This document shows, one piece after another, positions 5,317-62,546 of a DNA stretch of 64,000 nucleotides (position 1 is its first letter; each line of letters starts with the position of its first letter). Under the pieces are notes generated by a model. The model was not told the DNA's origin. It did not search any database and saw only the letters and a list, made by a program, of their open reading frames with translations. A program made the translations under genes and the position numbers. Origin of the DNA: a virus (lineage: Duplodnaviria > Heunggongvirae > Uroviricota > Caudoviricetes); the IMG/VR virus record IMGVR_UViG_3300000228_000007; one strand, given 5' to 3'.

Positions 5317-5958
5317 ATGAAAAAAGACTTTATAGTTTTTGAATGAATTGATTGAAGCTGAAAAGATACACAAATGATGTTGTTTATTGAAAAGCTTAAA
5401 AAATTTAATAAGTATGAACAAATATTAATCACAAGAGATCCATCAAATACTACTAAATCATGAAATCAAATAGCTCAGTCACTGTTAAATGGTTGATTTA
5501 AATCACCAAATGAAACACTTGAATTATATGTTAGTGATAGAATTGAGCGTTCGTCAATATATGAAAATATAATAAAATATGCTACTATAGTAGCATCAAG
5601 ATATGATTTATCAACATATGCATATCAATGAATACAATGATTCTCTTATGATGAAGTATTTGATTTTCATCAAAAAAAAGCAATAGACTTAGAATGATTT
5701 TTATTTGAACCAAATATCACTTTTCTTTTTGATATATCTCCCGAATTAGTTATGGAAAGAATATCTTTAAGATGAGAAAAAAAAGAAGCTTTTGAAACAT
5801 TAGAGCAGTTAAGTAAGGCAAGAGATAAATATTTAGATGCTATAAAATATTTAAGTGAAAAAACTTGAAGAAAGACTATAATAATAGATGCTTCAAAATC
5901 AATAGAAGAAGTTTCTAATAGTGTATGGGATGAATTTTTAAAGATAAAGTTAAAATAA
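5317..5958 (+). CDS. tmk: thymidylate kinase
   Basis: N-terminus MKKDFIVFEGIDGSGKDTQ is the classic Tmk P-loop. All three P-loop glycines are TGA codons (5344-46, 5353-55, 5359-61). LID/DRx-like region follows. A hairpin follows the stop. Confidence 0.85.
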
Positions 5959-23700: not shown

Positions 23701-26015
23701 GTTTTTCTTCATTAAAACCTTCTATAAAAATACTGGATAATGGTTCTTATTCAAGATGAGGTTATAAAACATCATCAAATAACTGTACGGTTAATCACTT
23801 ATCTCTTATGTGATTTAATGCAAGAGCAATCTGATGGAATAAATCATTGACATCAGCATGATGTTGGCTAACTTATAATATTCAAAATGTTCAAAAAGAC
23901 CTTTCAATAAATACAATATCTCCTTATGACTTATTGGCAAAATTCAAAGAAAAAACTGATATTAGACCAGTAGATACTTCACTAACATTGAATGATAAAA
24001 AAATAACATTTACATTATCAAAAGATATAAAAGTTAAAACTTCAATGTGAACATATATAGATATAAATACTTATATTCCATGATTTCAAAATCTTGGTTT
24101 CAAAATCTTAGCAAAAAATGTATTCTTTATATATGGTAATGATTCTACTAATTGATACTTATTAAGAAGTTCAAATGAATGAGATTCTTATGATATAATA
24201 TATAAATCAGTATGAAAGAAAATAGTAAAATCATATATATCAGATATATTAAATATTATATTCTTCAATGATTGAAAATTTGTAAGAGATACAAATGGTG
24301 GTTCTTGACCTTGGTCTTCAATGATGACATTGGTTGATTACAATTGAATAAATGATATATGATTTTTAAGTAGTATGAATTGATTTGTGTTATGAAACAA
24401 TTGAATTATGTGGAAAACTCAAGATGGGGGTCAATCATTTGAAAAAATTAACTTAAAAGTTACTAATAATCTTTGAATAGGGGAAAGTATTACAAGTATT
24501 GATACGTATGGATGAAAAGATATATGGTTATCTACCTCGCTTTGAAATGTATTATATAGTTCAAATGCATGAACTCTATTTACAAAGAAAACTTCATGAG
24601 CTAGTGTTGATACTAAAATATTCTGATATGAAGATTGAGCTCAAACAGCTGTTAATGTTAGTGTAAATAATGTAGTATGAAATACTATGCAAGGCGTAGA
24701 TACTATTGATAATGGGATGTCTATTAAATTTGACAACCTTAACTTTATGCTTACCGGAAAATGATACAAATGAGTATCAACGATCATCCCCGCAAATGGT
24801 GAAATGTTGCATTATACAACGACTAATATAATTGACTTTACTCCCTATATTACAAATAACTATGTTAATGCCGATTTATATTTAGATGTTTATGTTTCAA
24901 ATATAGAAAAGACAGGAGATTTATGAGATATCGTATTTAAAGATAATGGTCAGACAACAACTTTGTGAATAAGTGATGTTAAACAGTTCAATATTGATGG
25001 TTCAAATACTTTGAAAACTTGATGGAATACCATTAAAGTTCCTGTAAGAAATTTAAATACTCCTTGAAAATGGGATCAAAGTTGAAATAACTGGGCTAAT
25101 ATAAGTCGTATTGAAATATGGAATATTCCTTCCGCAAATAAAAATATGCAAGGTTCATACTTTGTAGTAAGTAATCTACGCTTAGCACCTATTACAAATC
25201 TTTCGAATATACAAACTGTATATTTATTTCCAGATTGAAATATGTCAAAAGTAGTTCAAGATGAAATTATAAGCTTTAATGGTGTTGCTAATACAAGTAA
25301 TAGATTTTCATTATCTGCATTCAAAAAATCAGATAATACATTAGACTGATACTTAACATTAGACTTATATGTTTCTGATACATCTGCTGAATTTCCAAGA
25401 GCATTAAAGTTATGAAATTCTAATAATAATGCTATTATATGGAATAATCTTGCTACGTTTGTAAAATGATGAACAGTTAAATCTTGATGGAATACTTTAA
25501 TATTACCATTTAAAGAAACCTGAAATTCAAATATTACTTATACTAATAAGTATGATATAAATTGGTGAAGTATTGATTTATTTAAGATATTCATGTATAA
25601 TACGACTCATACAAAATATTCATTATTCGCTATTGATAATATAATATATTCATCAACTGCAAATACTTCGTTTAATTTTATAAGATTCTTTAATACAAAA
25701 GAATGAGTTGCTTATGACCAAAATAAAACATATATAACATCTGATAATATTACTTGGTGAAATAATGAAGTTCATACAGAACCATGATTATCATTCATTA
25801 ATATAGTTAGATTGAAATGACGTGAAGTTTATGGAGTTGCAAATTCGTCAAATGGTTGGATATCATATTACTCATTAGACAAATGAAAAAACTCAAAAAA
25901 ATATTCTTCTGCTTCTTGAATTAACTTTAACTCTTTTGATGCTTTTGACTATGATTATTGATTTTCAATATCAAGTAATAATAAACTTTATAGAATGGAT
26001 TTAGTCCCAAATTAG
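14727..26015 (+). CDS. giant secreted surface protein (~3,760 aa), N/S/T/G-rich with repeated C-terminal modules
   Basis: A single frame-3 ORF from ATG 14727 to TAG 26013-26015 when TGA is sense; track fragments 16386-16580 and 21219-21431 share the frame. Signal peptide MLKKIILSFMTILLVTQGIFGIAKA. No TAA/TAG was seen on manual read-through. C-terminal modules repeat the motif G(W)NT(I/L)..P... Confidence 0.7.
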
Positions 26016-27849: not shown

Positions 27850-29769
27850 TTAGTAATAATTTCAAACATTATGTATATATTTTTCAGGTATTTCATTAAG
27901 AAATCTTGAAGGTTGTTGGTATTGATAGTTTCAAAAAATCATTCTTTCACCAACATAACTTAAAAATAAGTTTTCTTTTGCTCTTGTCATAGCAACATAC
28001 ATTAATCTACGTTCTTCCTCTAATCAAGTTAATGTTTCAATTGAATTTTTACTTGGTAAAATACCATCCTCAACAGCAACTACTGCTACGTTTTCAAATT
28101 CAAGTCATTTTGATTTATGAATAGTCATAAGACTTACAAATTCAGCATTATCATCTTTATGTTCATTAGCATCTTGCATAAGAGCTATTTTTTCAACGAA
28201 TTCTATAATTCCTTCATAACCAGGAAATCATTCATAAGACATTCACATCGATACAAGTTCTCCTAAGTTTTGTTTTTTATCATCAAATTCTTCTCAATTA
28301 TAGTTTTTCTCAAGATATTCAAGATATCCTATTTCTTTTATAACCATAGAAATTAAATCACCTACAGACACTGAATCAGATGCTTCTTTCAAATTTTTCA
28401 TAATATTTATAAATTCTTCAAATCAAATTTTTGCTTTACCTTTTAATGAATTTGATACTATTGATGGTTCTTCAATAACTTTGTGAAAATTTCCAGAGTA
28501 TTGTTGTTTTACTATATCTAATATATCAGCTACTCCTTTTGCTCATAATCAACGAGTAGGAGTATTAATAACTCTTTTGAATGAGTTTGAATCTTTTTTA
28601 TTTACTATCAAGTTAATGTATCACATAATATCTTTAATTTCCATTCTTTCTACGAATACCAATCAACCAAAAACCCTATAAGGTATTTTACTATTAATAA
28701 GTGATTGCTCTATTATTCTTGAAATATAATTATTTCTATATAAAATAGCCCATTTTTTAGGCATTCAAGTTTTTAGAATTTCTTTGGCTATATTATCGGC
28801 TTCTTGCAATGAATTATTTAGATTGAATACTTTTATTGGAGTTCAAATATCTCACATTGAAAACAATTTTTTATCAAGTCTAATAGTATTGTTTTTAATA
28901 ACTTCATTAGCTGAATTTACAATAGTTTGAGTTGAACGATAGTTTTGTTCAAGATTTATTACAACAGCTTCTGGATAATCTTTGGTAAAGTTCAATATAT
29001 TTTTCATATCAGCATTTCTAAATGAGTAGATAGACTGATAATCATCTCATATAACACATAAATTTCTCGTATGTGCTGATAATAGTTTCATAATATTATA
29101 TTGTATCATATTAGTATCTTGATACTCATCAACGAAAAAATACTTAAATTGTTTATTAAACCTACTCATTACTTCTGGGATTTTTAGTATTTCAAGAAAG
29201 TTGATTAACAAATCATTAAAATCCATAGCATTGTCATTAAAGATTCTTTTTTGGTATTCTTGATAAAACTCAAATATAATTCTATCTAAGTCCTTTTTTA
29301 TATTTTTTTCTATTAATTCTAAAGAAAATCAAAAGGTTTTAAATTTATCAATTTTATCCTTAAAAAGAGATACATCTAAATCTAACTCTGCGAGTTCCAT
29401 TTCTTTGAATATAGTTTTCATAAGTTTTGTAACATCTCAATCGTCATAAATTGAAAAGGCTTTATCATATCATAATAAATTTCAATAAGTACGAAGGTAT
29501 CTTGCCGCTAAACTATGGAAAGTTCATAAAATAGGCATTCAGGAAATTCATTCAGTTTGTATTCTTGTTGCAATTCTATCTTTCATTCATTTTGCTGCTT
29601 TATTAGTAAATGTTACAGCAAAAATTTCTTCGGGACGGGCTTCTCCATCCAAAATTAATTTTATAATTCTTTCAATTATAGTATGTGTTTTGCCAGACCC
29701 AGCACCAGCATTTATAAGTAATGGTCATTTTATATGATCAACTGCTTGTTGTTGTTGAACGTTTAACAT
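27850..29769 (-). CDS. UvrD/PcrA/Rep-family superfamily-1 DNA helicase
   Basis: Motif [15 protein letters not shown] with the G before PLL as TGA. Motif [18 protein letters not shown] with G as TGA. Further FTNKAA, TFHS and the C-terminal helicase motif V/VI region VAMTRAK. Confidence 0.85.
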
Positions 29770-48703: not shown

Positions 48704-49456
48704 ATGAAAACTAAATTTGGAGATAGAATGAAACGATATGAAAGTGAGCTTAATTATACTGTTGATACAACTAAATATACAGTTTTAAGACTCGACTGAC
48801 ATTGATTTTCAAAATTTACTAAAAAATTTGAAAAACCATTTGATATGAGAATTTATAATATCATGAACAAAGTAGTAGAAGATTTATTTTATGAATTTAA
48901 TCCGATAACATGATTTACTCAATCTGATGAAATAACGCTAATATTCAAACCTTCAGAAAATTTTATATATAATGGTAGAATAAATAAGTTGCTTTCTTTA
49001 ACATCGGCTTTTGCAACTGCTCGTTTCAATTTTTATTTATCTCAAGAATTAATAGGTTCTAATGATGAAATTCTTATTAATAAAATTTGATTAGCATTTT
49101 TTGATTGTAGAATTATGTCTATGCCTAATGAAACAGAAGCATTTAATATGTTGTTATGGAGAATGAAAGATTGTGCTACAAATAGTAGAAATACTTATTC
49201 ACAAGAATATATATCTTATAAAGAACTACAAGGTGTTGCAAGTTATGATGCTATAAAAATATGCAATGAAAAAACTTGAAACGATTGGAATAATTTAATA
49301 GAAGGTCTTAAATATTGAACATTATTTAAAAAAGCAGACTTTATAAATAATGAAGGCTTTTTAAGAACAATCGTTAAGCAGTTTCATATTGATATGTCTT
49401 TTAGTGAAGAAATGGTAAATTTTATGCTTTTAGACAAGATACCCTTAAATAATTAA
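48704..49456 (+). CDS. Thg1-like protein (tRNA-His guanylyltransferase family; 3'-5' nucleotidyltransferase)
   Basis: YTVLRLDGHGFSKFTKKFEKPFDMRIYNIMNKVVEDLFYEFNPITGFTQSDEITLIF matches the Thg1 N-terminal signature (RxDG..FhkF....KPnD ... SDE), with G of RLDG and HG as TGA. Start and stop verified. Confidence 0.7.
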
Positions 49457-49829: not shown

Positions 49830-50515
49830 ATTTTAATTAATTATATGACAACAACTGAACATTTTGAATTACAAAACTTTGGTGGCGTTGATAATACCTA
49901 ATTTTAATTTTTAATTATAAACTTATGAATATAGATTTTGATAGCGTAAATATAACTATTAATGATTTGAAAACAGTAATAGTAGCATTAGAAAATGGAT
50001 GATATAATCCCAATCAACCAATTGATGATTATGAAATAGAATACCAATTAAGTGAAATCATTAATAAAAAAGAACAATTATAATTAATTGTTCTTTTTTG
50101 ATAAGAAATCATATTCTTTTTTTAACATTGAAAATATTTTTAATCCATATTCACTTGTATTGCTTTCATACTTTTCAAACTTTTCAAATTCTTTCAAAAT
50201 TACTTACGGCATTCTCCATATATAAATTTTTAGTAAAATTGATGCTTTTAATAACGATTATTCATTCAAAGAACTAAAAAACTCTTGCATATTAAATATT
50301 AAAATTCTTGTTTACTTTTTAATAATAATTAACTCTCAATAGATGAAATTAAATACTTTTTTAATAGTTTTGAAAATTAATAACAAATCCAAGATCTTTT
50401 ATATAGCTTAAATTATACCATCTTCATTTTACTGGTTGAGAATACGTTCAACCAAAAATACTAATACTAGATCTAATTTTTATATTATAAAAATTACTTT
50501 CTATTATTAATAGTA

Positions 50516-50870
50516 TTAATCTTTTAATGATTTAATTTCTTTATTTTTTTCTAATATTTTTTCACACAGCTCATCAAATTTTGTTTTATTATCACTTGCA
50601 GCTATGAATTCATTATTTAAAATACTTGAGAAAACATATTTATCAGCAAGCTTAAGCAGATATTCAAAATTTTGTTTTATTAAGTGTTTATCTTTATTAA
50701 TCTCAGCAGTTCATTGCATAAAAACGTCTATAAGATTATCTATTCGACTCTCTGTTTCAACAAGTCTATAATCAACCATTTCTTGTTCGAATATTTCTGA
50801 ATAAATAGGTATTCCATCAATAATAGTTTGATAATAAGAAGTAATGTAAGCTGTATGTGTTGTTGCCATA
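50516..50870 (-). CDS. small hypothetical protein (~117 aa)
   Basis: ATG at 50870 (atggcaacaacacat...) to TAA 50516-50518. Confidence 0.4.
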
Positions 50871-51104
50871 TTATTTTATAATTATTAAATAGTAGAAGTA
50901 GATTAACAAATCTATTTTATAGAATAAATATATAAAAAATCAAAAAATATATATAAATTTTGTTTTTTTTATATATTTATTGTATTAAATTATTTAATAC
51001 TTAAAAGTATGAATAAAACTACGTTGTATATTACTCTGAATTTAAGCTATTATTAGTGGATTAACTCCACACTTTACTTTAATTTTAATTGACTAATAAT
51101 ATTT

Positions 51105-51414
51105 TATGAGCAACAATAATAATTATGAAACGTATTATACCATTTTGGTTAATAATAAAATAATACAAAGAATAAAAAGTAATACACTAGGATTATGATT
51201 TATGTCTGATGATAATTTTGTAATTTTGTTTTTAGATAATGATGGAGAAAAACAATTTATGTATATAGATAATTATAGTGCGAATATTGTTTGATATATT
51301 CCAGAACTAGATCTAACTTTATTTTGAGAGCATTTGGAATGAACATCTTATTTAAGGTGAAATCCATTTAATATTCAAATAAATGAAGATTTCAAATTTG
51401 CATATAATATATAA
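51105..51414 (+). CDS. small hypothetical protein
   Basis: ATG 51105 to TAA. Confidence 0.3.
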
Positions 51415-52095
51415 ATTATTATATAGGTTTTACTTAATATCAGCTATGGATGTTATCTATAATTGGATTTTCTAAAGGTGTTGGATAATGTGTTGAAATT
51501 TGTTCAATTTAAGTTTTAAATGATTTTTATAGCTATAAAACCTACAAGTGCATTAAATTCATTTTTGGAATATAAAATTACAAAAGTATTACATAAATTA
51601 ATGAACTTATAAAAAAATGCTTGATTTATAGTCATGAGTAATAAACTAATAATTTAATAATAAATACAATAATTATGCCAGACTTAACGATAGCTAAATT
51701 TGATGATAAAAATTATGGATGTATAGTTTGATACGTAGGAACTGATGAACTTTGTCCAGAAATAAAATCTAATACTATTACTGTTCATGTAGAAGAAGTT
51801 GTTATAAAAACATTACATTGAAGTAGAGATAAAATAAATAATATTTTGAAACTAATATTTGAAGAATATAGATAGTTTTTATCTTAATTTATAATAAAAA
51901 TGTCAAACAATATAAAATTTGTACATGTTGTAAAATAAACTCAAGATTCTGAGTGTTATTATTATGAAAACCTAATAAGTGTTTTCAAAAATAAAGAAGA
52001 CGCTGAAAAAGAAGTAGAAAAATTAAGTGAAGAATTTTCAGAACCAACACACCTCTACGAATATAAATCTTTTAATTTATAATAACTATAAAACA

Positions 52096-52247
52096 ATGCT
52101 TGAAAATACTGAAAATATATGAAATTGAACTTATTGTTCAAAATGTAAAAAAGAAATGGATATTATAGTCGAAAAGAAAATTATTAACTACACTATTCAA
52201 AAATATGGGACAGTTATATGCTACTCTTGCCAACAATATTTATAATA
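52096..52247 (+). CDS. small zinc-ribbon-like protein (CSKC...CYSC)
   Basis: 50-codon ORF with two CxxC pairs. Confidence 0.3.
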
Positions 52248-52255
52248 AATAATAT

Positions 52256-52561
52256 ATGAAACTAAACTATCCACTTATATCGTTTGAAAAAAATGATATG
52301 ATTTTAGACTTCATTAAATGACTTTTTAATAATAATTTTTTATTATCAAACAATTCTGATTGAGATATTGTAGTAAATATTACTTTTGAAAACTTTAATA
52401 AAGCAATGACTATTTCAAATTATGAATTTAGTGATTTTGAAGCCTCTATATTTTTAGATTTTGAATACATAGTAAAACTTATAGAAAAATCTAATGTTGA
52501 AATAGATAATATTAATATAACATTGACAAAAGATATAGAATCGTTACCTTATTATTATTAA
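52256..52561 (+). CDS. small hypothetical protein
   Basis: ATG 52256 to TAA 52559-52561. Confidence 0.35.
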
Positions 52562-52909
52562 CTTACTTACAATAAACACATATGGCTATATTGTGAAAAT
52601 CAGAATAATCTTGTTTTAATTGTTGAAACCCTAAGTGTGATAAAACTATAGAATCTTGTTTAAAGGCTATAAATGAATGTGAATTAAGCGTACATAGGAT
52701 TATAGATAATTGAGAAGAATCCCACATCAATTTACAAATGAAGGGGTAGAGGAGTGGATTAATAAATATGCCGAAAAGTTTAGATTGTTATGGTATACAA
52801 GTACTGACTACTATTACTTAAAGACAAATCTATATGTATAAATATTTGATTTTAAAATAATATTTTATATACTATATACAAGTAAATTAAAATTAATTAA
52901 ATATAAATC

Positions 52910-54526
52910 GTGAAACAAATAACCATAAAGCAATCGTTTGAAGATATTATTATTAATAATAATCTATACATAGATAAAACTAATTCTATTTATAAGTTGA
53001 TTAATTCTAACGATTCTGTCTTTTTGAAAAAACCGAGAAGATTTTGAAAATCTATGCTAATATCAACTTTATATTCACTATTTTCTTGACGTGAAGATCT
53101 TTTTGATTGACTTTATATAAAAGAGCAAACGAATTATGATTTTGCAGAATTCCCTATTATTTATATAACATTTGCTAACTTTAAGGCATCTGAATATAAT
53201 GATAAACTTGAGTATTATTTTAATGAAAATATATATATATCATATGAATGAACTTTATATAATAGACATGATTTTAATATTGAAACAAATACATTGGGCG
53301 AACTTATAAAAAAAATTTATAATAAATTCTGAAAACAAGTTGTATTATTAGTTGATGAATATGATAAAATAGCAACAGAAAACTTTAATAATAGTAAGTT
53401 AAATGACTATATTGATATACTGGATTGATTTTACTCTTGAATTAAAGAAGCCTCTTTACAAAGATACTTAAAGTTTACATTAATCTCTTGATTGACTAAA
53501 ATCCTTTCAAATCATTTACTATCAACACTCAATCATTTAAATGATATTTCAAACGATTATAGTTTTTATTCTATTTGTGGATATACAAAAGAAGAAATTA
53601 TAAATAATTTTGATCAATCAGAAAATGACTATTTACCGTTATTAGCTTTAAAAAATAACAATACTATTGAAAAAGAACTACAAAATATTAAAAACTTTTA
53701 CAACGGATATAACTTTTGAAATGAAAATGATTTGATTTATAATCCATATTCTATAAATTTATTATTTGATAAACAAACATATGACTATTATTGGTCAGAT
53801 ACATGAAGATCCTCTTTAATTGTAAACTATTTATCAAATGTTTCAAAAGATGATTATAATGAAATTATAGAAAAAATTAAGAAATGAAAATTAACAAATA
53901 TTTGAAGTCATGATATTTTAGAATTAAAAAATAGTACTGATAGTACATCTATTTGAACGTTGTTATATATAACTTGATATTTAACTTATAAACAAGGTAA
54001 ATACGTTCTACCGAATAAAGAAACAAGAATTTCTGTAATACAAGATTTTATAAACATAGTTTATTGATATAATTCAAAAAAATCAAAAATATTAAACTAT
54101 GATGGTCGTAATATTATTGAATGATTATTAGAAAATGATAAATATTTACTTTCTGAATGATTAGAATGATTAAAATATTTATTAGTAAAAACAGTTTATC
54201 AATGGCAATTTTGAAATCCTGAAGGTGTTTTAAAAATCAGATTACAAGATATGTTTGAGCTTGGTTTGAATTATAACTTTCAAGAATTACGTATTGAAGA
54301 ATCTACTAATGATGGTGATGCAGATATGATTATAATAGATAAATATAGAAATACTGCTGTTATTATAGAAGCTAAATGATCTGAAAAATTAGAAAAAGCA
54401 ACACATCAAGCCATAGAACAATATATGCCATTTTATAAAGCAGATGGTTATAATGTAATAATTTTTTGAATTAGATGGAATAAAGATAAACAAGAGCTTA
54501 CTTATACTGAACCACTATTTTATTAA
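52910..54526 (+). CDS. predicted AAA-ATPase (PF09820-like) fused to C-terminal PD-(D/E)xK nuclease (PDDEXK_9-like); probable GTG start
   Basis: N-terminus VKQITIKQSFEDIIINNNLYIDKTNSIYKLIN...VFLKKPRRFGKSMLISTLYSLF matches the family consensus (F..i....YVDKT..I..L......FLsRPRRFGKSL). C-terminus NDGDADMIIIDKYRNTAVIIEAKG carries D...D...E.K. The frame opens directly after a TAA; the first in-frame start is GTG. Confidence 0.65.
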
Positions 54527-54970
54527 TATGAATATTAAGAAAATACTTCTAATAGAAGATGAACCAATTATACATAAGTACTTTATAGATATTTTTTGAA
54601 TTGAAAATATTATAATTAAACTTTATGGTATCGATAATATTAATGAAATATTATCTTGTAAATATGTATTTATTGATAGAGATACTCCTTTTATGAATAA
54701 TTGAAACTATCATGAAAACTTCTTATTAAATTTTGAAAAAATTATTGAAAGTAATCTTTTTTATGAAGAATTATTATGGAAAATATTTTTTATTTCTGGA
54801 GAAAGATTAAATAACGAGTTTATAATAAATAAAATCATTCTTCTTTTAGAAAAATATAAAATTATACAGTCCAGGGAAATGAGAATTTATTATGAAGAAA
54901 TATTAAAAAATAATATTTATTGAAAATCAAATAAAGATATCTATGATAAAATAAAAAGATGACTAACATA
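54527..54970 (+). CDS. hypothetical protein (~147 aa)
   Basis: ATG 54527 to TAA. Confidence 0.4.
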
Positions 54971-54988
54971 ATATTAGTCGTCTTTTTT
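54954..54988. terminator. hairpin gatgactaa/ttagtcgtc (one G-U) with A5/T6 flanks, convergent terminator shared with rsr
   Basis: aaaagatgactaacataatattagtcgtctttttt. Confidence 0.45.
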
Positions 54989-54995
54989 CATAATT

Positions 54996-56523
54996 ATCTT
55001 TTTAAGTATTTTGAACCGAAGTTTTCAATTTCTCTTACAATATTATTATCCTTATATGAATCTAAAGCATCAATGTATTGGAATATTTTGTCTGACCAAC
55101 CTTGAACAAGGTAAACATTATTCATGTTTGAAACCTTTGTACCATATCATCCAACATCAAAAATGAAACATTTTATATTAGGATTAACTTGGTTCATGTA
55201 ATTTTTAAGTTCTTTTTCAACATTAGCAACATCACAAGAAGAGTTATACATTTGACTATCAGAAAAGAACATTATTGTGTCTACGAATAGATTTCTTTTT
55301 GTAAGTTCTTGAATTGCCAAGTATCCGTTAGTTGAATAACCAACTTCACCATCTCGATAAGAATCAAATATATCAAAAGCACCAGTAGGATTTTTTAATT
55401 TAACTGAATCACCGAAAACACCTGCAACACTGTATGGAGAAACTGTTGCCGCAATACCAGTATATAACAGTCCTATATCTATCATTTTTACTGTAGATTT
55501 TGGGTGTATATTATCGGTCATAGAACCTGAAACATCTGCAAATACAGCAATTCTATTGCTTAATTTAGTGTTTTTTACAGAATATAAAACAGCCGTAGAC
55601 AATGCTTTTTTAATTACATTAGAATATAAGTTATTTGGTAAATTCTTATATGCAGAATAAAAACGGAAAGGTAATTGTTTTGAATTTTCAACAGCATTTT
55701 CATTAGAAATGTAATTTGCTATCATAGAAACAAGGTTATCAGCGTCATCTCTATTTACTGAAGCAAATTTATCTGCAACTTCAAGAATATTTCTTAGATT
55801 TCTAATTGTGGCCATATAACCAAGTTTTTTGTTTAAAACAAGATCATACCATACATAAAACACATCAGTAAGGTATGTTTCTGTATTTTTTGGAATAGAT
55901 GAAATAATCCTTTCCCAAGTATAAGGTTTTTCTACTGTGCCATCTAATACTTTTTTTGCAAGAACTGAATTTGGATGTATGATACGAACAACATCTTTTA
56001 GATTAATAGCATAGTTTCTATCATATTTTCCAATTTGATACTCATCAAAATTATTAAATGCCTTAGCAAGACCTTTAATTAATGAGTGCGATAAAGCACC
56101 ACTTTTTGCTCTTTTGTTTACTTTACCTTCTGGTAATAGGTATCCTAATATTTCAACAATATCATCAATTCTTTCAACAGAATCAGCAATTAAATCGCTA
56201 AAATAAGCATTTTCACCATTAAAGTATTGTGAAAGTTCACCAATAATCACATGGCTCATTGTACGCATATTATAAACTTGTCTAACGTAAAATGCTAATC
56301 CAAGTACGAAAGAAGGATTTTTATAAGCTAATTGGCTTATTAAATTTTTAATTTTAACAAGTCTATCATCTTCTTTTTCATAAAAAGAGTCAGTTAAAAA
56401 GTTGGAAACAACCGCTCCAAGAAGTTCAAGTTCCAAAGATAAAGAATAAGCCCTTTCTCCTTCATGATTTACTGTAACGTTATTTACAGTATTCATTACA
56501 TTTTTTGATCCGAATTTTGGCAT
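54996..56523 (-). CDS. rsr: Ro60/Rsr ortholog (TROVE domain + vWA/MIDAS)
   Basis: Track ORF 55147-56523 extends through TGA to TAA at 54996-54998 (~509 aa). vWA MIDAS ADVSGSM is present. Overall length and architecture match Ro60. Confidence 0.75.
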
Positions 56524-56574
56524 AGTATATAATTATTATTTAATAAAAAAGAGTTAAAACTATTGATATAGTTA

Positions 56575-56703
56575 TTAACCCTTGGAGTTCAAATATATTA
56601 TCGTACTCTCATATAAAACAATGATCAAAAATCATTATTTCCTACGAAAGCAAGATACATTTTAATTAAAACTCAAGGGAGTGTGTTAGAGACAGATTTT
56701 TTT
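56575..56703. ncRNA. candidate structured ncRNA adjacent to rsr (possible Y-RNA-like)
   Basis: Long-range stem cccttggagtt (56579-56589) pairs with aactcaaggg (56670-56679) with one bulged C. Internal hairpin atgatcaaaaatcat (56621-56635). Followed by a T-run at 56697-56703. No ORF. Confidence 0.3.
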
Positions 56704-57093
56704 GTTTGTTATACAACCAAAGTTATATAACCATATTTTTTTGCTATAATTAATATAGCAAAAGGTTTTGTGAAAAGTATTTTTCAACTCTTCTAAAAAA
56801 ATCTAAATAGATTAGATTAATCAGTAATTTTATACGATGTATCTGATCTCTCTGTCACCTCGAATTGTGAATATTGTTTTTTTACTGGGATTCTTATGGG
56901 ACAAATTTTTTTTATACATAAATTGTGCGATGAATTTGCGACCCCTGTCACCAGATATTTATATATTATGATATAATTAAAAAAATCAAATCTTTTTTAT
57001 AAAATCATAATAATAAGTTTTTTTTACTTTATTTAAAAATATAATAACTTAAATTAATCGTTAATATTATATACCATACGATATATAATATTA

Positions 57094-58728
57094 TTAAAAG
57101 TTGTTTTTTATAAATTCATCAGGGTTTTCATTTAATACAAAATCTATTGTAATTACATTATTCAAGAACTCTTCATCAAGTAAATTATCTCATAAAGATT
57201 TTAATAGTTCATTAAACTTTAATTTTATATCCATACCATAATGGTTTCTATTAATTCTTTCTGCTATTTCTTGATGAGTAATGGTTATATATTTAGCAAC
57301 CTTTGATATATCAAGTTCTTGAACTAATTTTTCTTGATTTTTTATCATATCTCTTAATTTTTTCAAAAAATCTTTTCTTAATCTATTGTATTCTTGAACA
57401 TCACGTCCTGTCATATCAAATGCTTGTTCTTTTGTTAATTCTGGGTATCCTAAATCTTCAAAATTTGAAAAATCTTTAATTTTATAAAAATCAATATCTC
57501 CCTTTTTTAATTCCATAGAACAATTTCTTTTTAAAGAATCGTAAAAATTAGGAATTGAAATATATAAATCTTTAATTTTTTCAAAAAGTTCTTTTCTTGT
57601 TTTTATATCAAAAGAAAGTTCATTTTTAATATATGATGGTATTAATACCTCCAATAATATTTCCTTTTTATTATCATCTATATAATTATCAATATTTCCT
57701 TTCAAGTTTTCATTTCAAATGAGAAATTCATCAATATCTTTATATTTTCAAAGATTGAATACATAAACCATTTTTCATCTTGCATAAAACTTTTTAGCAA
57801 TTTCATACATGGCTCTTGTTCATGCTCAATCATTATCAAGTAATAATGTTACTTCATCAATTCTATTTATAAAAGAATTAATTTGGCTGTCAGATAAAGA
57901 AATTCACAATAATGCTAATGATTTTGTACCTCCATAATTATATAGCTGTATCGTATCAATATTTCATTCACAGATAAAAACATCTCTCGTTAAAAAATCT
58001 ACTTTATCAATATTTAATAGATTATGAGATTTTTCATAAATAAAGTTATTTGTTGAATGTATATATTTTGGTTCTTGATCTGAACGTATTCTTCCTCATG
58101 AAAATGCAACGGTTTTTCAAAACATTGTTTTTACAGGAAACATAATTCTATCAACGAATAAAAAAGAGCCTTTATCATTAAATAAACTAATGTCTTGTAT
58201 TTTTATAATTGAATATTTTTCATCTTTAAGTATACTACTTACATACATTTCAAGATCTCTTCACTTTGAAAATCATATATCAAATCTTTCAATAGTATCT
58301 TGAGAAAGACATCTTTGTTCTTTCAAGTATTTAACTTGAACTAAACTTTTTACTAATGCTGATTGACAAAATTTAATTACTAAATCGTGAATTTCATAAA
58401 TCAATGCTTGTTTTTTAGCGGCTTCTTTATCAAATTCATTTTGACTTAAATCAATATTAAGTCAAAAAATGCTATTAAACTCATTTAATGTTTCAAAAAA
58501 ATTATAACCTTTATATTCTTTAACGAATCTGAATATATCACCTCCTTTTCAAGAAGAAAAGTCTTTCCAAATTCATTTTTCATCACTTGCTACAAGAGAG
58601 GGAGTTCTTTCTTTCTTGAATGGAGATAAATACTTCTGAGTACCACTTAAAGAACTATCACCTTTTAAGTAATAGCCTAATACTTTATTTATGCTTAATT
58701 GTTGCTTTATATCCTCTATATTAATCAT
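57094..58728 (-). CDS. dnaG: DNA primase DnaG with degenerate (Cys-less) N-terminal zinc-binding region
   Basis: RNA-polymerase domain motifs RIMFP, AFSGGRIRSDQEPKYIHS. Toprim VFICEGNIDTIQLYNYG and LLLDNDGAGTRA. The N-terminus LSPFKKERTPSL...WKDFSSGKGGDIF aligns with the CPFHxExTPSF...CFGCGxGG zinc finger but has lost all Cys/His. Track ORF 57190-57705 is the C-terminal part. Confidence 0.8.
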
Positions 58729-59117
58729 GTGTGAATCGCTATAATGTATAATATTATTTTAATACTATTATAATAATTTATTACCTTTAATCAAATCTTT
58801 TTTGAAAAAACTAAAAGATACAATAATTACAAATCAACTATTTACCGTTAATATTAATAATTAATAACTTAAAAATAAGGTTTATAATTTTTTACCCTTC
58901 ATAGAGAGAATACATACTATATATGATGGCAATTTTAAAGAAAATAAAGATTTATTAATCAAGGATTTAAACAAAGCAGCCGAGAATCAATTTAAGGTAA
59001 AAGTAAACTTGAAAAATATATAAATAGTAAGAAAGAAAAATTCTGTAAATAACGATAATAAAAAATATTTACAAAAAATAATGTTAAGGTTAATTTATTC
59101 TTAAATTGAAAAAATAT

Positions 59118-59624
59118 ATGGAATTCATAGGTATAACATGACATAGGGAAAAATTCTTCAATAATAAAGAACAAGATCTTTATAAAAAAAAGATTTTTGA
59201 ATTGTTGTCAAAAATAAAGAAATCCTGAAAGGAAATTACTTTCAACTTAGGAGGTGCTAATGGTGTTGATAACTGGTTTTGATTAACATGTATTCAATTA
59301 GAAATACCTGTTCATTTATATCTACCATATTGAAATGAAGAATTACTTAATAAAAACCTATCCTATTTTAATTTTATTAATATAATATCAGAACAAGTTA
59401 AAATATGGACTGAAAATCAAAAAAAAGAGTTGTTTGAAATTTATAAAAATGATAATGTAAAAGTATCTTCATTTTGAAAATGATATCATGGACGTGATAG
59501 AGAAATTATAGATAATACAACAACGTATATATACACCATTTTTAATGGTGATTACGCAACATGAACTGGTTATACTGTAAAGTATGCAACGAAACAAAAT
59601 AAAAGCATTATAAACTTAAAATAA
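59118..59624 (+). CDS. YpsA-like SLOG-family protein (DUF1273-like)
   Basis: MEFIGITGHREKFF...LGGANGVDNWFGLTCIQLEIPVHLYLPY resembles the B. subtilis YpsA/YoqJ architecture. Start and stop verified codon by codon. Confidence 0.45.
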
Positions 59625-59632
59625 TGCTTTTG
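59601..59632. terminator. hairpin aaagcatta/taatgcttt overlapping the ypsA-like stop
   Basis: aaaagcattataaacttaaaataatgcttttg. Confidence 0.4.
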
Positions 59633-60081
59633 TTAAAAATAATTATTGACTCACAATCATAAGAAGAAAATAACATTGACTTTTTTATTTTATCAATATC
59701 TCTTGATACATATAATCAATTTATAGTTAATAATAGTCAATCATAATCTTGTGATATTTTTTCGTAATCTATTAATTTCATTGTCAATGTTGGAATTAAC
59801 ACAAGATCGTATCAATATGTTTTTATACAATTAAAAACATCAATCTCATTATCTATAATTAATATTTTAGAAGTTTCTTTTATTGAGAATAAAAATTGTT
59901 TTATTTCATTTTCTGAATGATTTCAGTATCATGTATCTTTGCAAAAATCAATCCATCAGTATTCTGAATTTATAGGGCTTCACCACAATCATCATAAAGG
60001 TTTAGGGTGACAACGATTTTTTATATCATGAAAAAGATCACTATTAAAATAGTTATATTTTCAATAGTGAATAAACTTCAT
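59610..60081 (-). CDS. hypothetical protein (~156 aa), visible only under the TGA=Gly reading
   Basis: Minus-strand ORF MKFIHYGKYNYFNSDLFHDIKNRCHPKPLGGLWGSPINSEYGWIDFCKDTGYGN... with 12+ in-frame TGA. Missed by the standard-code ORF track. Confidence 0.3.
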
Positions 60082-60094
60082 ATTTATATCTATA

Positions 60095-60304
60095 TTAGTT
60101 AAAGTATTTTTCATATATTTTAGGTATTATATTTTGTTTGATAAAATCAAGGCATTGAGACTCTGTTTCCATTCATGCATAAGATATATATTTCAATATT
60201 AGCAAAAGATGTTTCATAAAATGAATCATATATCCCCCAGTATTCTCTACATTTTTATTATTTACTGTTAATATAAATGATCATTTTATCAAATATGCAT
60301 TCAT
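60095..60304 (-). CDS. small hypothetical protein (~69 aa)
   Basis: Minus-strand ORF MNAYLIKGSFILTVNNKNVENTGGYMIHFMKHLL.... Confidence 0.25.
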
Positions 60305-60486
60305 TAAATTTCATAAATATATATTATATACTGATACTAATTTTTTAGTTTCTTTATCTTCAATAAATATTAAATATGAATATCAATATAATCTTTTACT
60401 ATAAAATCACAAATATCTTCTTTTTCAGATATTCAAAATAATATATCTTCAAATGGTTCTAAGTTTTCTATACTATGTTATATTAT

Positions 60487-60761
60487 TAGTTAATAAAAAA
60501 TGCTACTAAATTATCCTCTTCATTATAATAGAGACAATCATACTTATTTAAATTAAGAAAAACATATTTATCTTTTAGTTCATCAACCGTACATTGAACC
60601 ATTCTGTTTGAAATATCATTATCAACATTTATTATACTTAACGGGTCTTCAAATAACATATAATAATCCAATAAAGCATCAAATATCTCATCTGATAATT
60701 GATTTTTAAATGGTGAAGCCTCAATTAACCTAACAAGATTAGATTCTTTTCTATTTTCCAT
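60487..60761 (-). CDS. small acidic hypothetical protein (track ORF)
   Basis: Standard-code ORF with a true TAA stop. Confidence 0.4.
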
Positions 60762-60891
60762 ATATTAAAATGTTGTTATAAAATATTATTACAAACATAT
60801 ATTACTTATAACTTATAAATTATCAAATATATTGATTTTTTTATTTAAAAAAAATATAATCGATCTATAATTTAACCATAACTTATAAATA

Positions 60892-61410
60892 ATGTCATTA
60901 AATATAATATATGCTATACTAATAGTTTTATTCGGACTAATTTCATTTATTTGAATAAACAATATTCTTAATAAGTTCATAAAAACAAAATATTGAAAGA
61001 ATGATATTTTACACAGAATTATAATTTTTGCTAAAGTTCTTAATTTTGTAATATTATCATTTATATGTTTATTACTTATACTTAATTTATTTTGAGTAAC
61101 AATAACTAAAATATTAACATGAGTTTGAGTTTGAGGTATTATATTTACAATAGTAGGTAAAGATTTTCTTACAAACATAATAACAAGTATTATATTTTTA
61201 ATGAATTGAGTTATTGAAATTGGTGAAAAAATTAAGGTTGGTATGATAGAAGGTGAAATTGTGGAAATTACTATAAACTACGTAAAATTGAAAGATAAAA
61301 ATTGAAATTATATAAATTTTCCTAATAAGAAATTGGCATGAGAACCCGTAGAACATATTACTCACTTTTCTGAAGAAAAAATTCAAAAAGTAGAAGTTGT
61401 TAGTAAATAA
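60892..61410 (+). CDS. small MscS-like mechanosensitive channel (~172 aa)
   Basis: Three hydrophobic helices, then IGEKIKVGMIEGEIVEITINYVKLKDKNGNYINFPNKKL matching the MscS beta-domain signature (GD.I..G...G.V..I....T......dG..v.iPN). The opposite-strand track ORF 60813-61178 is judged spurious. Confidence 0.6.
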
Positions 61411-61835
61411 CTAATAAACATATATAAAAAAGACATAAATTATTACTTTTTTTGATTAACATTTAAATGTTATACTGATTATAGTTTATGAATTCTTATT
61501 ATTTAATAGGAATTATAAAAATATAAATTTACATATTTATTATTAATATAAAAGAAAATAACTATTTCTCCTGCAAACTTATTTTGAGAATATTGTTGGT
61601 CTTATGATAATAACGATGATTATGTATGTAGTTTTACACCTCCAAAATTTACAATAGCAGATGTACAAAATTTTATACGTGAGCAAAATGAGATTTATCA
61701 TGATATACTATTTCTATAAAAGATTTTTGATTATATAATTTTGAATGTTATTTGGGAAACTATAAAAACAAAATACCTGATATACAAATTGATAACTTTT
61801 TTGACTTTTCAGTGCTTGGTAAAATTAAATTGTTA

Positions 61836-62546
61836 ATGACATTATATCTTTCAGATGGAAATTATGATAATTTTGAGAGTTTATCAAATATTAATATATG
61901 AAAAATTCATTTTATTACAGAAGATATTATATGAATATATAATATAAATGTTAATAGTGATATAAACTTGTATACTAATGAGTTTATGGCTGAAATTATT
62001 ACATTAAATATGACCGGAGAGTGAAAAATTATATTTAATTGAAATATTAAAAAAATGGAGTTTTGAATATCTAACTCACAATATTATAGTAATATATCAA
62101 GATCTGAAGATAGATATGAAGAAGAAATAAAATTATGAATTCAATCTATAATGAATACATTATCTTATTTTTATGCAGATGAAGACTCGACAGTTGATAC
62201 ATTAAAAATAGATATAAAAAATGAGGTATATCCATTTATAAATGAAAGTTTTAAGCATTTAATAATAAATGCAAAAGAAACATATATAACAACCTATATT
62301 AATCAAAATGAGACGTTTGATATAACAATGGATAAGATCTCTGATATAAAATCTAACATAGTCCATATCAATCCATCAATTTCAATAACGAGTCCAGCGA
62401 TAGATATGTTTGAATTTTTACAATTTTTTAAAAATATAAAAGATAAAATAGTTGTTCTTAATTGGGATATAGTAATCAAACACTTTTTTATAATCGTTGA
62501 TATGATTCTTATAAGAAAAAAGACATTATTAATAACTATAAAATAG
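61836..62546 (+). CDS. hypothetical protein (~236 aa)
   Basis: Frame-3 ORF including track ORF 62151-62546, extended upstream through TGA codons to ATG 61836. Confidence 0.4.

What the first reader, a model, noticed from the sequence alone, without database searches (positions are those of the whole stretch)
54996..56960. Ro60/Rsr ortholog with an adjacent 570-bp ORF-free structured region: candidate bacterial Y-RNA-like ncRNA(s)
The rsr gene (TROVE + vWA, MIDAS DVSGSM; ~509 aa under the TGA=Gly reading) is followed, before dnaG, by an unusually long noncoding stretch. That stretch contains a ~100-nt domain closed by a long-range stem with a single bulged C (cccttggagtt / aactcaaggg), an inner hairpin and a terminal T-run. 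A long stem with a bulged C is the Ro60-binding hallmark of Y RNAs. A second repeat-rich element lies at 56836-56960 (ctgtcacc x2, tgcga x2, aattgtg x2). Rsr/Y-RNA modules are sporadic in bacteria, and I know of none described for code-25 CPR lineages.
Basis: partly seen in the sequence, partly recalled or inferred. Interest (0 to 1): 0.75.

Follow-up and report, generated by a model that had tools for sequence, protein, structure and literature searches.

The report
Y-RNA genes upstream of a Ro60 gene
The long gap next to the Ro60/Rsr gene of this TGA=glycine (code 25) bacterium most likely encodes two small structured RNAs of the Y-RNA family, the known RNA partners of Ro60, on the same strand as the gene, in a divergent form that the public RNA-family models miss.

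Summary
The rsr gene (54994-56523, minus strand, 509 aa, one TGA=Gly) and the 570-nt gene-free gap are real. The gap lies upstream of rsr and downstream of dnaG; all three are on the minus strand.

This motif opens two tandem minus-strand RNAs:
- Unit A, about 56955-56884.
- Unit B, 56865-56670.

Both have the same architecture: outer helix, bulged U, G:C and A:U pairs, internal loop, inner helix, then an apical domain starting (U)AC(A/U)UCG. This architecture recurs, with compensatory changes, in every rsr locus of the same recoded clade. It also recurs in hundreds of rsr-linked tandem RNAs of Bacteroidota and phages. Some of those carry the tRNA-like arms of YrlA and match Rfam YrlA below threshold.

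The window RNAs have no tRNA-like domain and no Rfam hit.

One of its arms is the 3' strand of unit B's outer helix, so it is not the homology-defined Ro-binding stem.

Verdict: a divergent variant of a known system (Rsr plus Y RNAs) in a lineage where I found none described. Expression and Rsr binding are untested.

The parts
54994..56523 (-). rsr (Ro60 ortholog): TROVE plus vWA/MIDAS, 509 aa, with one TGA read as Gly
   Evidence: An exact 509-aa protein, P0001, is in the public collection.
56963..56989 (-). Sigma-70-like promoter candidate: TTGATT (56989-56984), 15-nt spacer, TAATAT (56968-56963), 10 nt before GGUGACA of unit A
   Evidence: The same TTGATT-N15/16-TA(A/T)TAT lies 9-10 nt upstream of unit A in L001 and L003. 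It is too weak for the consensus scan. Inferred, not shown.
56884..56955 (-). Y-RNA-like unit A (~72 nt).
- Outer helix: CUGG (56954-56951) with CCAG (56888-56885).
- Bulged U: 56950.
- GA (56949-48) pairs with UC (56890-89).
- Loop: CAG on the 5' side, AUAAGAA on the 3' side.
- Inner helix: GGG[UC]GCAAAUU with AAUUUGUCCC.
- The apical loop starts CAUCGCA.
   Evidence: MFE. RNAalifold on 4 A-type units gives 14 pairs, 8 of them compensatory. Second-best PWM hit in the whole window. Partner permutation test.
56670..56865 (-). Y-RNA-like unit B (196 nt).
- Outer helix: AUUCGAGG (56865-56858) with CCUUGAGU (56678-56671).
- Bulged U: 56857.
- GA (56856-55) pairs with UC (56680-79).
- Loop: CAG on the 5' side, AACACAC on the 3' side.
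- Inner helix: AGAGA[U]CAGAU (56851-56841) with AUCUGUCUCU (56697-56688).
- The apical domain is AU-rich with several hairpins and starts UACAUCG.
   Evidence: MFE -52.3 kcal/mol, z=-7.38. RNAalifold with L001 and L003. Best PWM hit in 64 kb on both strands. Duplex analysis.
56595..56661 (-). Hairpin C: a long AU-rich hairpin with a UUU loop. The optional closing stem 56679-56670 / 56589-56579 competes with unit B's outer helix.
   Evidence: -24.5 kcal/mol alone, -36.7 with the closing stem. Minus strand z=-5.27. Hairpins sit at the equivalent position in L001 and L003 but not in L238, L007 or L361.
56545..56582 (-). Terminator-like AU-rich hairpin plus UCUUUUUU, ending 21 nt before the rsr ATG
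   Evidence: -10.2 kcal/mol. A hairpin with a U-run lies at the same place in L001, L003, L007 and L238 and, by eye on the printed sequence, in L361. The consensus scan misses it because it has fewer than 3 G-C pairs.
57094..58728 (-). dnaG (primase), the upstream neighbour on the same strand. A perfect 12+12 palindrome (57062-57093) follows its stop.
   Evidence: Pfam Zn_ribbon_DnaG and DNAG_N on the identical gene in L235. Inverted repeat I21. Fold result.

Best explanation
The gap upstream of rsr carries a small ncRNA operon on the rsr strand. The order is: a sigma-70-like promoter, Y-RNA-like unit A (~72 nt), unit B (196 nt), a long hairpin (C), an intrinsic-terminator-like hairpin, then rsr.

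A and B are divergent members of the rsr-linked Y-RNA family (the YrlA/YrlB class). In each unit the 5' and 3' ends pair into a stem / internal-loop / stem module:
- an outer helix ending in GG;
- a bulged U;
- G:C and A:U pairs;
- a loop with CAG on the 5' side;
- an inner helix.

By analogy with characterised Y RNAs, this module is the Rsr-binding site. The apical part would be the effector or gating domain: a simple loop in A, four or five AU-rich hairpins in B.

What is shown:
- the conserved architecture with covariation;
- positional and strand linkage to rsr;
- sequence homology of the 5' module to rsr-linked RNAs elsewhere, some of them YrlA-like.

What is inferred:
- transcription, and processing from a common precursor;
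- binding to Rsr;
- tethering or gating of Rsr (for example with PNPase), as in Deinococcus, Salmonella and phage phiLo.
For: 1. The bipartite motif GGUGACA-N13-C(A/U)UCG occurs 2-3 times, with constant spacing, upstream of rsr. It is on the rsr strand in the window and in L001-L006 and L238. Relatives with GUGAYA...UUACUUCG occur in L007, L360, L361 and L362. All of these loci are from recoded organisms.

2. Unconstrained MFE gives the same architecture in 8 of 9 units. Unit B has z=-7.38.

3. Covariation within the clade:
- RNAalifold on A-type units predicts 14 pairs, 8 of them compensatory.
- On B-type units it recovers the outer and inner helices, with compensatory changes.
- Swapping 5'/3' partners among the 9 units at anchor-defined positions: inner helix own pairs sum to -91.8 against -40.6 +/- 8.8 kcal/mol (0 of 20000 permutations as good); outer helix -42.9 against -16.2 +/- 5.9 (1 of 20000).

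4. The same 5' module (consensus aGGUGyCGUAGaaaAGaGuUACUUCG, identical spacing) occurs in 505 unique instances. These form tandem arrays on the rsr strand in Bacteroidota and IMG/VR phage loci.
- A PWM trained without the window clade puts unit B first and unit A second among all positions of the 64-kb window, both strands. B scores 16.4 bits; the null maximum is 6.7 +/- 3.0, and 1 of 100 null sets reaches 16.4.
- The same PWM scores L001 B at 22.9 bits and the L007 unit at 24.8 bits.

5. 31 short units from those other lineages show the same two-helix, bulged-U architecture. 86% of cells are paired against 55% in shuffles. The covariation score is 0.77 against 0.21 (0 of 500 shuffles). 16 of 17 pairs show compensatory changes, and sliding the register destroys the signal.

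6. A covariance model built only from window-clade A units finds full-length, same-strand matches at independently defined units: phage loci L200 (E=0.0016), L233 (0.0034) and L181 (0.005) in a 526-kb search, and L362 (E=1.7e-4).

7. Link to YrlA:
- Units with this 5' module in L359 and L010 match Rfam RF02553 YrlA (39 and 38 bits, E=1e-5 to 4e-7, below the gathering score).
- By eye, units in L359, L010, L007 and L360 carry T, acceptor-like and D arms.

8. Published biology fits. Bacterial Y RNAs lie within 4 kb of rsr on the same strand, there are at least 2 per species, and they are often processed from one precursor. [quoted passage not shown] The phage phiLo Yrl1 and Yrl2 lie upstream of Ro60 and have a stem / internal bulge / stem form (PMC12135203).

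9. The cassette (promoter, units, terminator, rsr) is kept while the flanking genes differ between the window, L001, L003 and L361.
Against: - No Rfam family (Y_RNA, YrlA) matches the window, even at E<=10.
- A covariance model trained on 31 Bacteroidota/phage short units fails to find units A or B, even with filters off and in the 577-nt gap alone.
- The PWM support for B is only about p=0.01, and A scores just 4.8 bits.
- Unit A alone folds no better than shuffles (z=-0.18).
- The literal GNCGAAN0-1G / CGAA motif is absent. The window has GUGACAGAG, with CA in place of CG.
- There is no tRNA-like domain within +/-6 kb of rsr.
- The clade has few independent sequences: 8 loci, and three of the groups are internally identical.
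- The 31 units of A6 were picked by duplex energy, which inflates the percentage paired.
- When B is folded together with hairpin C and the terminator, the MFE rearranges B's base.
- There are no expression or binding data.
Confidence: 0.75

Rival explanations
1. A and B are not stand-alone ncRNAs. They are cis-acting parts of a long rsr leader, for example Rsr-binding sites that autoregulate rsr through the downstream terminator.
For: Only 21 nt separate the terminator U-run from the rsr ATG, so rsr probably depends on read-through from the same promoter. The 3' strand of B's outer helix can instead pair with 56589-56579. A similar alternative exists in L001 and perhaps in L007.
Against: In Bacteroidota the homologous units lie downstream of rsr, in arrays of up to 8, so the family does not act as a leader there. 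A terminator-like hairpin separates the units from rsr in every clade locus. The alternative pairing is absent from L003, L238 and L361.
Confidence: 0.12
2. One reading: the ~100-nt domain 56579-56680, closed by the stem with a bulged C, is the Y RNA, and that stem is the Ro60-binding site.
For: The stem and the inner hairpin exist. The minus-strand fold is strong (-37.4 kcal/mol, z=-5.27). [quoted passage not shown] L001 has an equivalent hairpin with a closing stem.
Against: The plus-strand fold is not distinctive. The hairpin shows no similarity to the family's 5' module (PWM). The closing stem is missing in L003, and the whole hairpin is missing in L238, L007 and L361. Its 5' arm is needed for unit B's conserved outer helix. 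Including the terminator removes part of the closing stem from the MFE.
Confidence: 0.05
3. GGTGACA-N13-CATCG is a DNA signal: an ECF-like promoter (GTGAC-N17-CGTA) or a repeated operator. On this view the gap is only regulatory DNA between dnaG and rsr.
For: The motif is bipartite with fixed spacing and resembles a -35/-10 pair. The consensus scan lists GTGACA-18-CACAAT. Copy B reads GTGAC-N17-CGTATA.
Against: The 13-nt spacer differs in every copy, and each spacer is complementary to its own distal partner 20-170 nt away. A promoter would not require that. The motif is homologous to the 5' end of RNAs whose ends pair and which carry YrlA-like domains.
Confidence: 0.04

Closest known systems
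Bacterial YrlA (Rfam RF02553; Chen et al. 2014, PMC4201824)
   Same: Encoded next to rsr on the same strand. The 5' and 3' ends pair into a stem that carries a conserved 5'-strand motif. Several copies occur per locus. Clade relatives L007 and L360 combine the same GUGAY 5' module with T, acceptor-like and D arms.
   Different: The window units have no tRNA-like domain and no RF02553 match. The conserved motif reads G[U]GACAG rather than GNCGAA(N)G. The window units also have an extra outer helix with a bulged U, which the Rfam model does not cover (alignment).
YrlB / Yrn2-type second Y RNAs (Salmonella, M. smegmatis, D. radiodurans)
   Same: Short Rsr-linked RNAs without a full tRNA-like module, encoded in tandem with another Y RNA and processed from a common precursor. 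Unit A fits this description (~72 nt, stem-loop). Hairpin C also resembles it in outline.
   Different: There is no detectable sequence similarity, and these RNAs have no curated model to test against.
Yrl1/Yrl2 of Thermus phage phiLo (PMC12135203; protein structures 9KOP, 9L5Y)
   Same: Two Y-like RNAs lie directly upstream of the Ro60 gene. Their form is stem / internal bulge with a conserved motif / stem. phiLo Ro60 is the closest solved relative of the window protein.
   Different: phiLo uses a CGAA motif. I could not compare the RNA sequences. The window looks chromosomal or of unknown mobility, not a recognised phage.
Metazoan Y RNAs (Rfam RF00019)
   Same: A terminal stem with a bulged pyrimidine in the 5' strand next to G-rich conserved bases (GGUC[C]GA in metazoa, GG[U]GA here). 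The architecture is modular, with a binding stem and an effector loop.
   Different: No Rfam match. Different polymerase and different 3'-end biology. The motif resemblance is recalled from the literature and was not tested here.

Membership tests
Bacterial Y RNA (YrlA/YrlB class) | Encoded within about 4 kb of an rsr/Ro60 gene, on the same strand | tested here: met
   Units A and B lie 361 and 147 nt upstream of the rsr ATG on the minus strand. The same holds in 8 clade loci and about 160 other loci.
Bacterial Y RNA (YrlA/YrlB class) | Long stem formed by pairing of the 5' and 3' ends, interrupted by a bulge or internal loop | tested here: met
   MFE, RNAalifold, permutation test, and family-wide covariation.
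Bacterial Y RNA (YrlA/YrlB class) | Conserved 5'-strand motif GNCGAAN0-1G (CGAA) | tested here: not met
   The window reads GUGACAGAG or GUGACAGGG, with no CG. Bacteroidota relatives read GUGYCGUAGA at the same positions. The window motif is a positional counterpart, not a literal match.
YrlA (RF02553) | tRNA-like effector domain (T arm, acceptor-like stem-loop, D arm) | tested here: not met
   ARAGORN finds none. Rfam finds no tRNA or YrlA match within +/-6 kb. The domain is present in relatives L007, L360, L359 and L010.
YrlA (RF02553) | Score at or above the Rfam gathering threshold (69 bits) | tested here: not met
   The window has no hit at E<=10. Even the clear YrlA-like units of L359 and L010 reach only 38-39 bits.
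Bacterial Y RNA (any) | Bound by Rsr, and dependent on Rsr for accumulation | not testable with these tools
   Needs RIP, EMSA or genetics.
Metazoan Y RNA (RF00019) | Match to the curated model | tested here: not met
   No hit.
Ro60/Rsr protein | TROVE (HEAT-repeat ring) domain | tested here: met
   Pfam PF05731, E=7.8e-21. Aligns over residues 17-489 with phiLo Ro60.
Ro60/Rsr protein | C-terminal vWA domain with MIDAS DxSxS | tested here: met
   DVSGS at residues 330-334, invariant in 6 homologs. Homologs carry PF25045 vWA_Ro60. The window protein itself did not reach that Pfam model.

The most novel reading that the evidence does not exclude
This would be the first Rsr/Y-RNA module in a code-25 (Gracilibacteria/Absconditabacteria-type) lineage. 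Its RNAs have dropped the tRNA-like effector domain entirely and use a variant binding motif (GG[U]GACA).

In addition, the 3' strand of unit B's Rsr-binding stem can pair either within the Y RNA or with the hairpin just before the terminator. Rsr occupancy of the Y RNA could then set read-through into rsr, giving an RNP-sensing feedback switch.
Probability: 0.1. Interest if true: 0.6.

Novelty: new variant of a known kind. Interest (0 to 1): 0.45.

Why it matters
- It extends the Ro60/Y-RNA ribonucleoprotein to small-genome, recoded candidate-phyla bacteria. I found no such module described there: no paper in the searched library combines Ro60, Y RNA and Gracilibacteria.
- Rfam's YrlA model misses most rsr-linked RNAs in the loci I scanned. 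No match reached gathering in 12 Bacteroidota loci, 18 IMG/VR phage loci or the recoded-clade loci L001, L003 and L007.
- The analysis yields a compact, covariation-supported consensus for the presumed Rsr-binding module: outer helix, bulged U, G:C, N:N', internal loop, inner helix, then UACUUCG. This could seed a better model.
- The window locus lacks any tRNA-like Y RNA. That is a natural test of whether the tRNA-like domain is needed for Rsr function.
- RNA-repair genes lie nearby in the window and in relatives: Thg1-like in the window, T4 Rnl1-like in L362. This fits the proposed role of Rsr in RNA surveillance and repair.

Tried and rejected
- Rfam at gathering on the whole window, and in E-value mode on 56400-57200 and 50000-62000: no Y_RNA, YrlA or tRNA match.
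- ARAGORN on the window, L001, L003 and L007: nothing.
- nhmmer with a 42-nt profile: unusable, because my first training filter kept only 23 sequences and nhmmer's seeding is poor for such short models. I replaced it with a PWM scan.
- Viral-collection scan for GTCTCTA-N5-8-TCCCTTG: more than 120 hits, none with the 5' motif, so chance matches.
- Own-versus-foreign duplex energies across 150 units of the large family: weak (mean z=-1.2), because the 5' modules share conserved bases and the downstream windows contain other units. A pattern test was clearer: 64 of 250 own modules against 2 of 250 foreign ones.
- MAFFT on hand-trimmed 5'+3' modules misregistered the 3' halves (A2), so I did not use it for pair counts.
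- Covariance model R1 (Bacteroidota/phage short units) against the window: negative.
- Rfam at gathering on 18 phage loci and 12 Bacteroidota loci: no YrlA at threshold, so no above-threshold anchor for the family.
- Genome and metagenome scans with the protein alignment returned only Bacteroidota relatives at ~35-41% identity. No closer species-representative genome carries this protein.
- Reviews PMC10870794 and PMC6542706 are not held in the library.
- I considered the sigma-54 and ECF promoter readings of the bipartite motif and rejected them because of the covariation.
- Flavo-1 RNA hits near rsr (L093, L091) do not overlap the Y units.
Full report
**What is at the coordinates**

The window has 23% G+C. 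It reads as coding only if TGA is a sense codon: 83% coverage by ORFs under code 25 against 9% under code 11. TGA falls on universally conserved glycines. Examples are the thymidylate-kinase P-loop (FEgIDgSgKDT), UvrD (VIgDDYQSIY), the DnaG Toprim motif (DNDgAg) and Thg1 (RLDgHgF). The single TGA in the TROVE gene aligns with Gly in homologs. Code 25 is therefore supported.

The TROVE gene lies on the minus strand at 54994-56523 and encodes 509 aa. Pfam TROVE scores E=7.8e-21, and the MIDAS-like motif is DVSGS. The closest solved relative is the Ro60 homolog of Thermus phage phiLo.

The 570-nt gap (56524-57093) is upstream of rsr and downstream of dnaG (57094-58728). All three are on the minus strand.

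The two arms and the inner hairpin exist. However, the plus strand folds no better than shuffles (z=-0.83). The minus strand folds at -37.4 kcal/mol (z=-5.27). The whole gap is also more structured on the minus strand (z=-7.5 against -3.7). Rfam finds nothing in the window, and there are no tRNAs.

**Related loci**

The exact protein (P0001) and relatives at 40-61% identity come from other recoded contigs: L001/2, L003-6, L007, L238, L360, L361 and L362. The next relatives are a large Bacteroidota clade at about 35-41% identity and IMG/VR phage contigs.

Upstream of rsr in the window, L001 and L003, and always on the rsr strand, I found 2-3 copies of GGUGACA-N13-C(A/U)UCG with constant spacing. 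A block GUCUCU-N-UCCCUUG follows, and a hairpin plus U-run lies just before the ATG.

**Architecture**

Duplex and MFE analysis of nine units shows one plan. The units are window A and B, L001 A and B, L003 A0, A and B, L238, and L007. The plan is:
- an outer helix ending in GG;
- a bulged U;
- two pairs, G:C and A:U;
- an internal loop, with CAN on the 5' side and 6-8 A-rich nucleotides ending before UC on the 3' side;
- an inner helix, often with a 1-3-nt bulge in the 5' strand;
- an apical domain beginning (U)AC(A/U)UCG.

In the window, unit A spans about 56955-56884 and unit B spans 56865-56670. Unit B's MFE is -52.3 kcal/mol (z=-7.38). Unit A is thermodynamically unremarkable (z=-0.18).

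The 13-nt 'spacer' differs in every copy, and each is complementary to its own distal partner:
- RNAalifold gives 14 pairs, 8 compensatory, for the A-type units.
- It recovers both helices for the B-type units.
- Exchanging partners among units at anchor-defined positions abolishes the complementarity. For the inner helix, own pairs sum to -91.8 against -40.6 +/- 8.8 kcal/mol (0 of 20000 permutations as good). For the outer helix the figures are -42.9 against -16.2 +/- 5.9 (1 of 20000).

This argues for an RNA structure and against a promoter or operator reading of the motif.

**Link to known Y RNAs**

In L359 (code 11, Rsr 40% identical), four tandem RNAs upstream of rsr start (A)GUG(A/U)AGAUAAC(A/U)GUUACUUCG. 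Two of them carry T, acceptor-like and D arms. One matches Rfam YrlA over the whole model (39.2 bits, E=4e-7 to 1e-5), which is below the gathering score.

The same 5' module (aGGUGyCGUAGaaaAGaGuUACUUCG) occurs in 505 unique copies with identical spacing. The copies form arrays of up to 8 on the rsr strand: downstream of rsr in Bacteroidota, upstream in phage contigs.

- **PWM test.** A PWM built from these copies, with the window clade excluded, ranks unit B first and unit A second among all positions of the 64-kb window on both strands. B scores 16.4 bits. The null maximum is 6.7 +/- 3.0, and 1 of 100 null sets reaches that value. The same PWM scores L001 B at 22.9 bits and the L007 unit at 24.8 bits.
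- **Family covariation.** Thirty-one short units from those lineages share the two-helix, bulged-U architecture with strong covariation. 86% of cells are paired against 55% in shuffles, and the covariation score is 0.77 against 0.21 (0 of 500 shuffles). 16 of 17 pairs are compensatory, and register slides destroy the signal. The caveat is that I chose these units by duplex energy.
- **Covariance models.** A model from those 31 units does not find the window units. The reverse model, trained only on window-clade A units, does find full-length, same-strand matches at independently defined units in L200, L233 and L181 (E=0.002-0.005 in 526 kb) and in L362 (E=1.7e-4).
- **tRNA-like relatives in the clade.** L007 and L360 combine the GUGAY module with canonical T, acceptor-like and D arms.

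Together, the homology chain, the linkage to rsr and the shared architecture place A and B in the rsr-linked Y-RNA family.

**Differences from YrlA**

- The window has no tRNA-like domain anywhere within +/-6 kb of rsr.
- The literal GNCGAA/CGAA motif is replaced by G[U]GACAG.
- The RNAs have an outer helix that the Rfam model does not cover.
- Unit A resembles the short 'second' Y RNAs (YrlB/Yrn2 type). Unit B has an AU-rich multi-hairpin apical domain that is not conserved with L001 or L003.

**Surroundings of the units**

A TTGATT-N15/16-TA(A/T)TAT element sits 9-10 nt before unit A in the window, L001 and L003. Only about 20 nt separate A from B, so co-transcription is likely. Published work reports processing from one precursor for M. 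smegmatis and D. radiodurans Y RNAs (PMC4201824).

After B comes hairpin C (56661-56595, -24.5 kcal/mol), then an AU-rich terminator-like hairpin with a U-run (56582-56545, -10.2 kcal/mol), ending 21 nt before the ATG. Terminator-like hairpins occupy this position in the other clade loci.

Hairpin C has positional counterparts only in L001 and L003, and perhaps in L362. The two pairings are therefore mutually exclusive. The closing stem is absent from L003, L238 and L361. Whether this competition is regulatory is speculation.

**Verdict**

Y-RNA-like genes do sit beside rsr, but on the other strand and at the other element. This is a divergent variant of a known system, in a lineage for which I found no description. 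The main weaknesses are:
- there are no expression or binding data;
- independent clade sequences are few;
- Rfam and the R1 model give negative results;
- the statistics for the cross-lineage sequence match are only moderate.

Noticed in passing
window, all ORFs (e.g. 5317-5958, 27850-29769, 57094-58728): There are 691 in-frame TGA codons among 17,796 codons in 56 ORFs. TGA occupies invariant glycines of the Tmk P-loop, the UvrD motif, the DnaG Toprim motif and Thg1. This is direct evidence for genetic code 25 (TGA=Gly) rather than code 4.
   Followed up: yes
window 48704-49456 (+): A Thg1-like protein (tRNA-His guanylyltransferase family, Pfam E=1e-33) lies about 6 kb from rsr. This is a possible RNA 5'-end repair theme near the Ro60 module.
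   Followed up: partly
L362 4447-5529 and 962-1050: In a recoded relative, a T4 Rnl1-type RNA ligase gene lies two genes downstream of rsr. A tRNA-Tyr gene lies about 300 nt upstream of the two Y-like units.
   Followed up: no
L088 579-1723; L093; L106 1-2417; L228; L203; L188 and L207: Many Bacteroidota and phage rsr loci carry tRNA gene arrays. L188 and L207 also carry a tmRNA next to rsr. In L106 the Y-like units are interleaved with tRNA genes.
   Followed up: partly
L088 4186-5085; 159 loci overall: The rsr-linked RNAs with the GUGYCGUAGA...UUACUUCG module form tandem arrays of up to 8 copies per locus. None of the 12 Bacteroidota or 18 phage loci scanned reached the gathering score of Rfam YrlA. 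The best matches were 38-39 bits against a threshold of 69.
   Followed up: partly
L360 2400-4908: The Rsr homolog P0121 (635 aa) has an N-terminal extension of DUF4116 repeats, visible as ~100-nt DNA repeats. It sits between TerD and TerC genes, and its three Y-like units lie about 1 kb upstream.
   Followed up: no
window 9868-12270 (+): An 800-aa ORF combines an FtsK/SpoIIIE ATPase region with two RusA-like Holliday-junction resolvase regions. This is an unusual fusion that hints at mobile-element or phage-derived DNA in the window.
   Followed up: no
window 14727-26015 (+): A single 3,762-aa ORF with an N-terminal signal-like segment. It is presumably a giant surface protein.
   Followed up: no
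window 57055-57093 (-): A perfect 12+12-nt AU palindrome lies directly after the dnaG stop (-11.8 kcal/mol). It is probably the dnaG terminator, although no U-run follows immediately.
   Followed up: partly
L093 4043-4120 (-); L091 5977-6077 (+): Rfam Flavo-1 RNA (function unknown) lies within 0.1-2 kb of rsr in two Flavobacteriia loci. It does not overlap the Y-like units.
   Followed up: partly
L007 305-345: A truncated second unit (CCUUGGUGACUGAAAUCGG) runs directly into the terminator hairpin before rsr. It looks like a decayed Y-RNA copy.
   Followed up: no
window 53054-54526 (+): The gene two genes beyond the rsr stop codon (convergent, on the opposite strand) encodes a PF09820 AAA-ATPase-like protein. 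A 147-aa ORF with a response-regulator-like N-terminus but no Pfam hit follows it and lies directly next to rsr.
   Followed up: no
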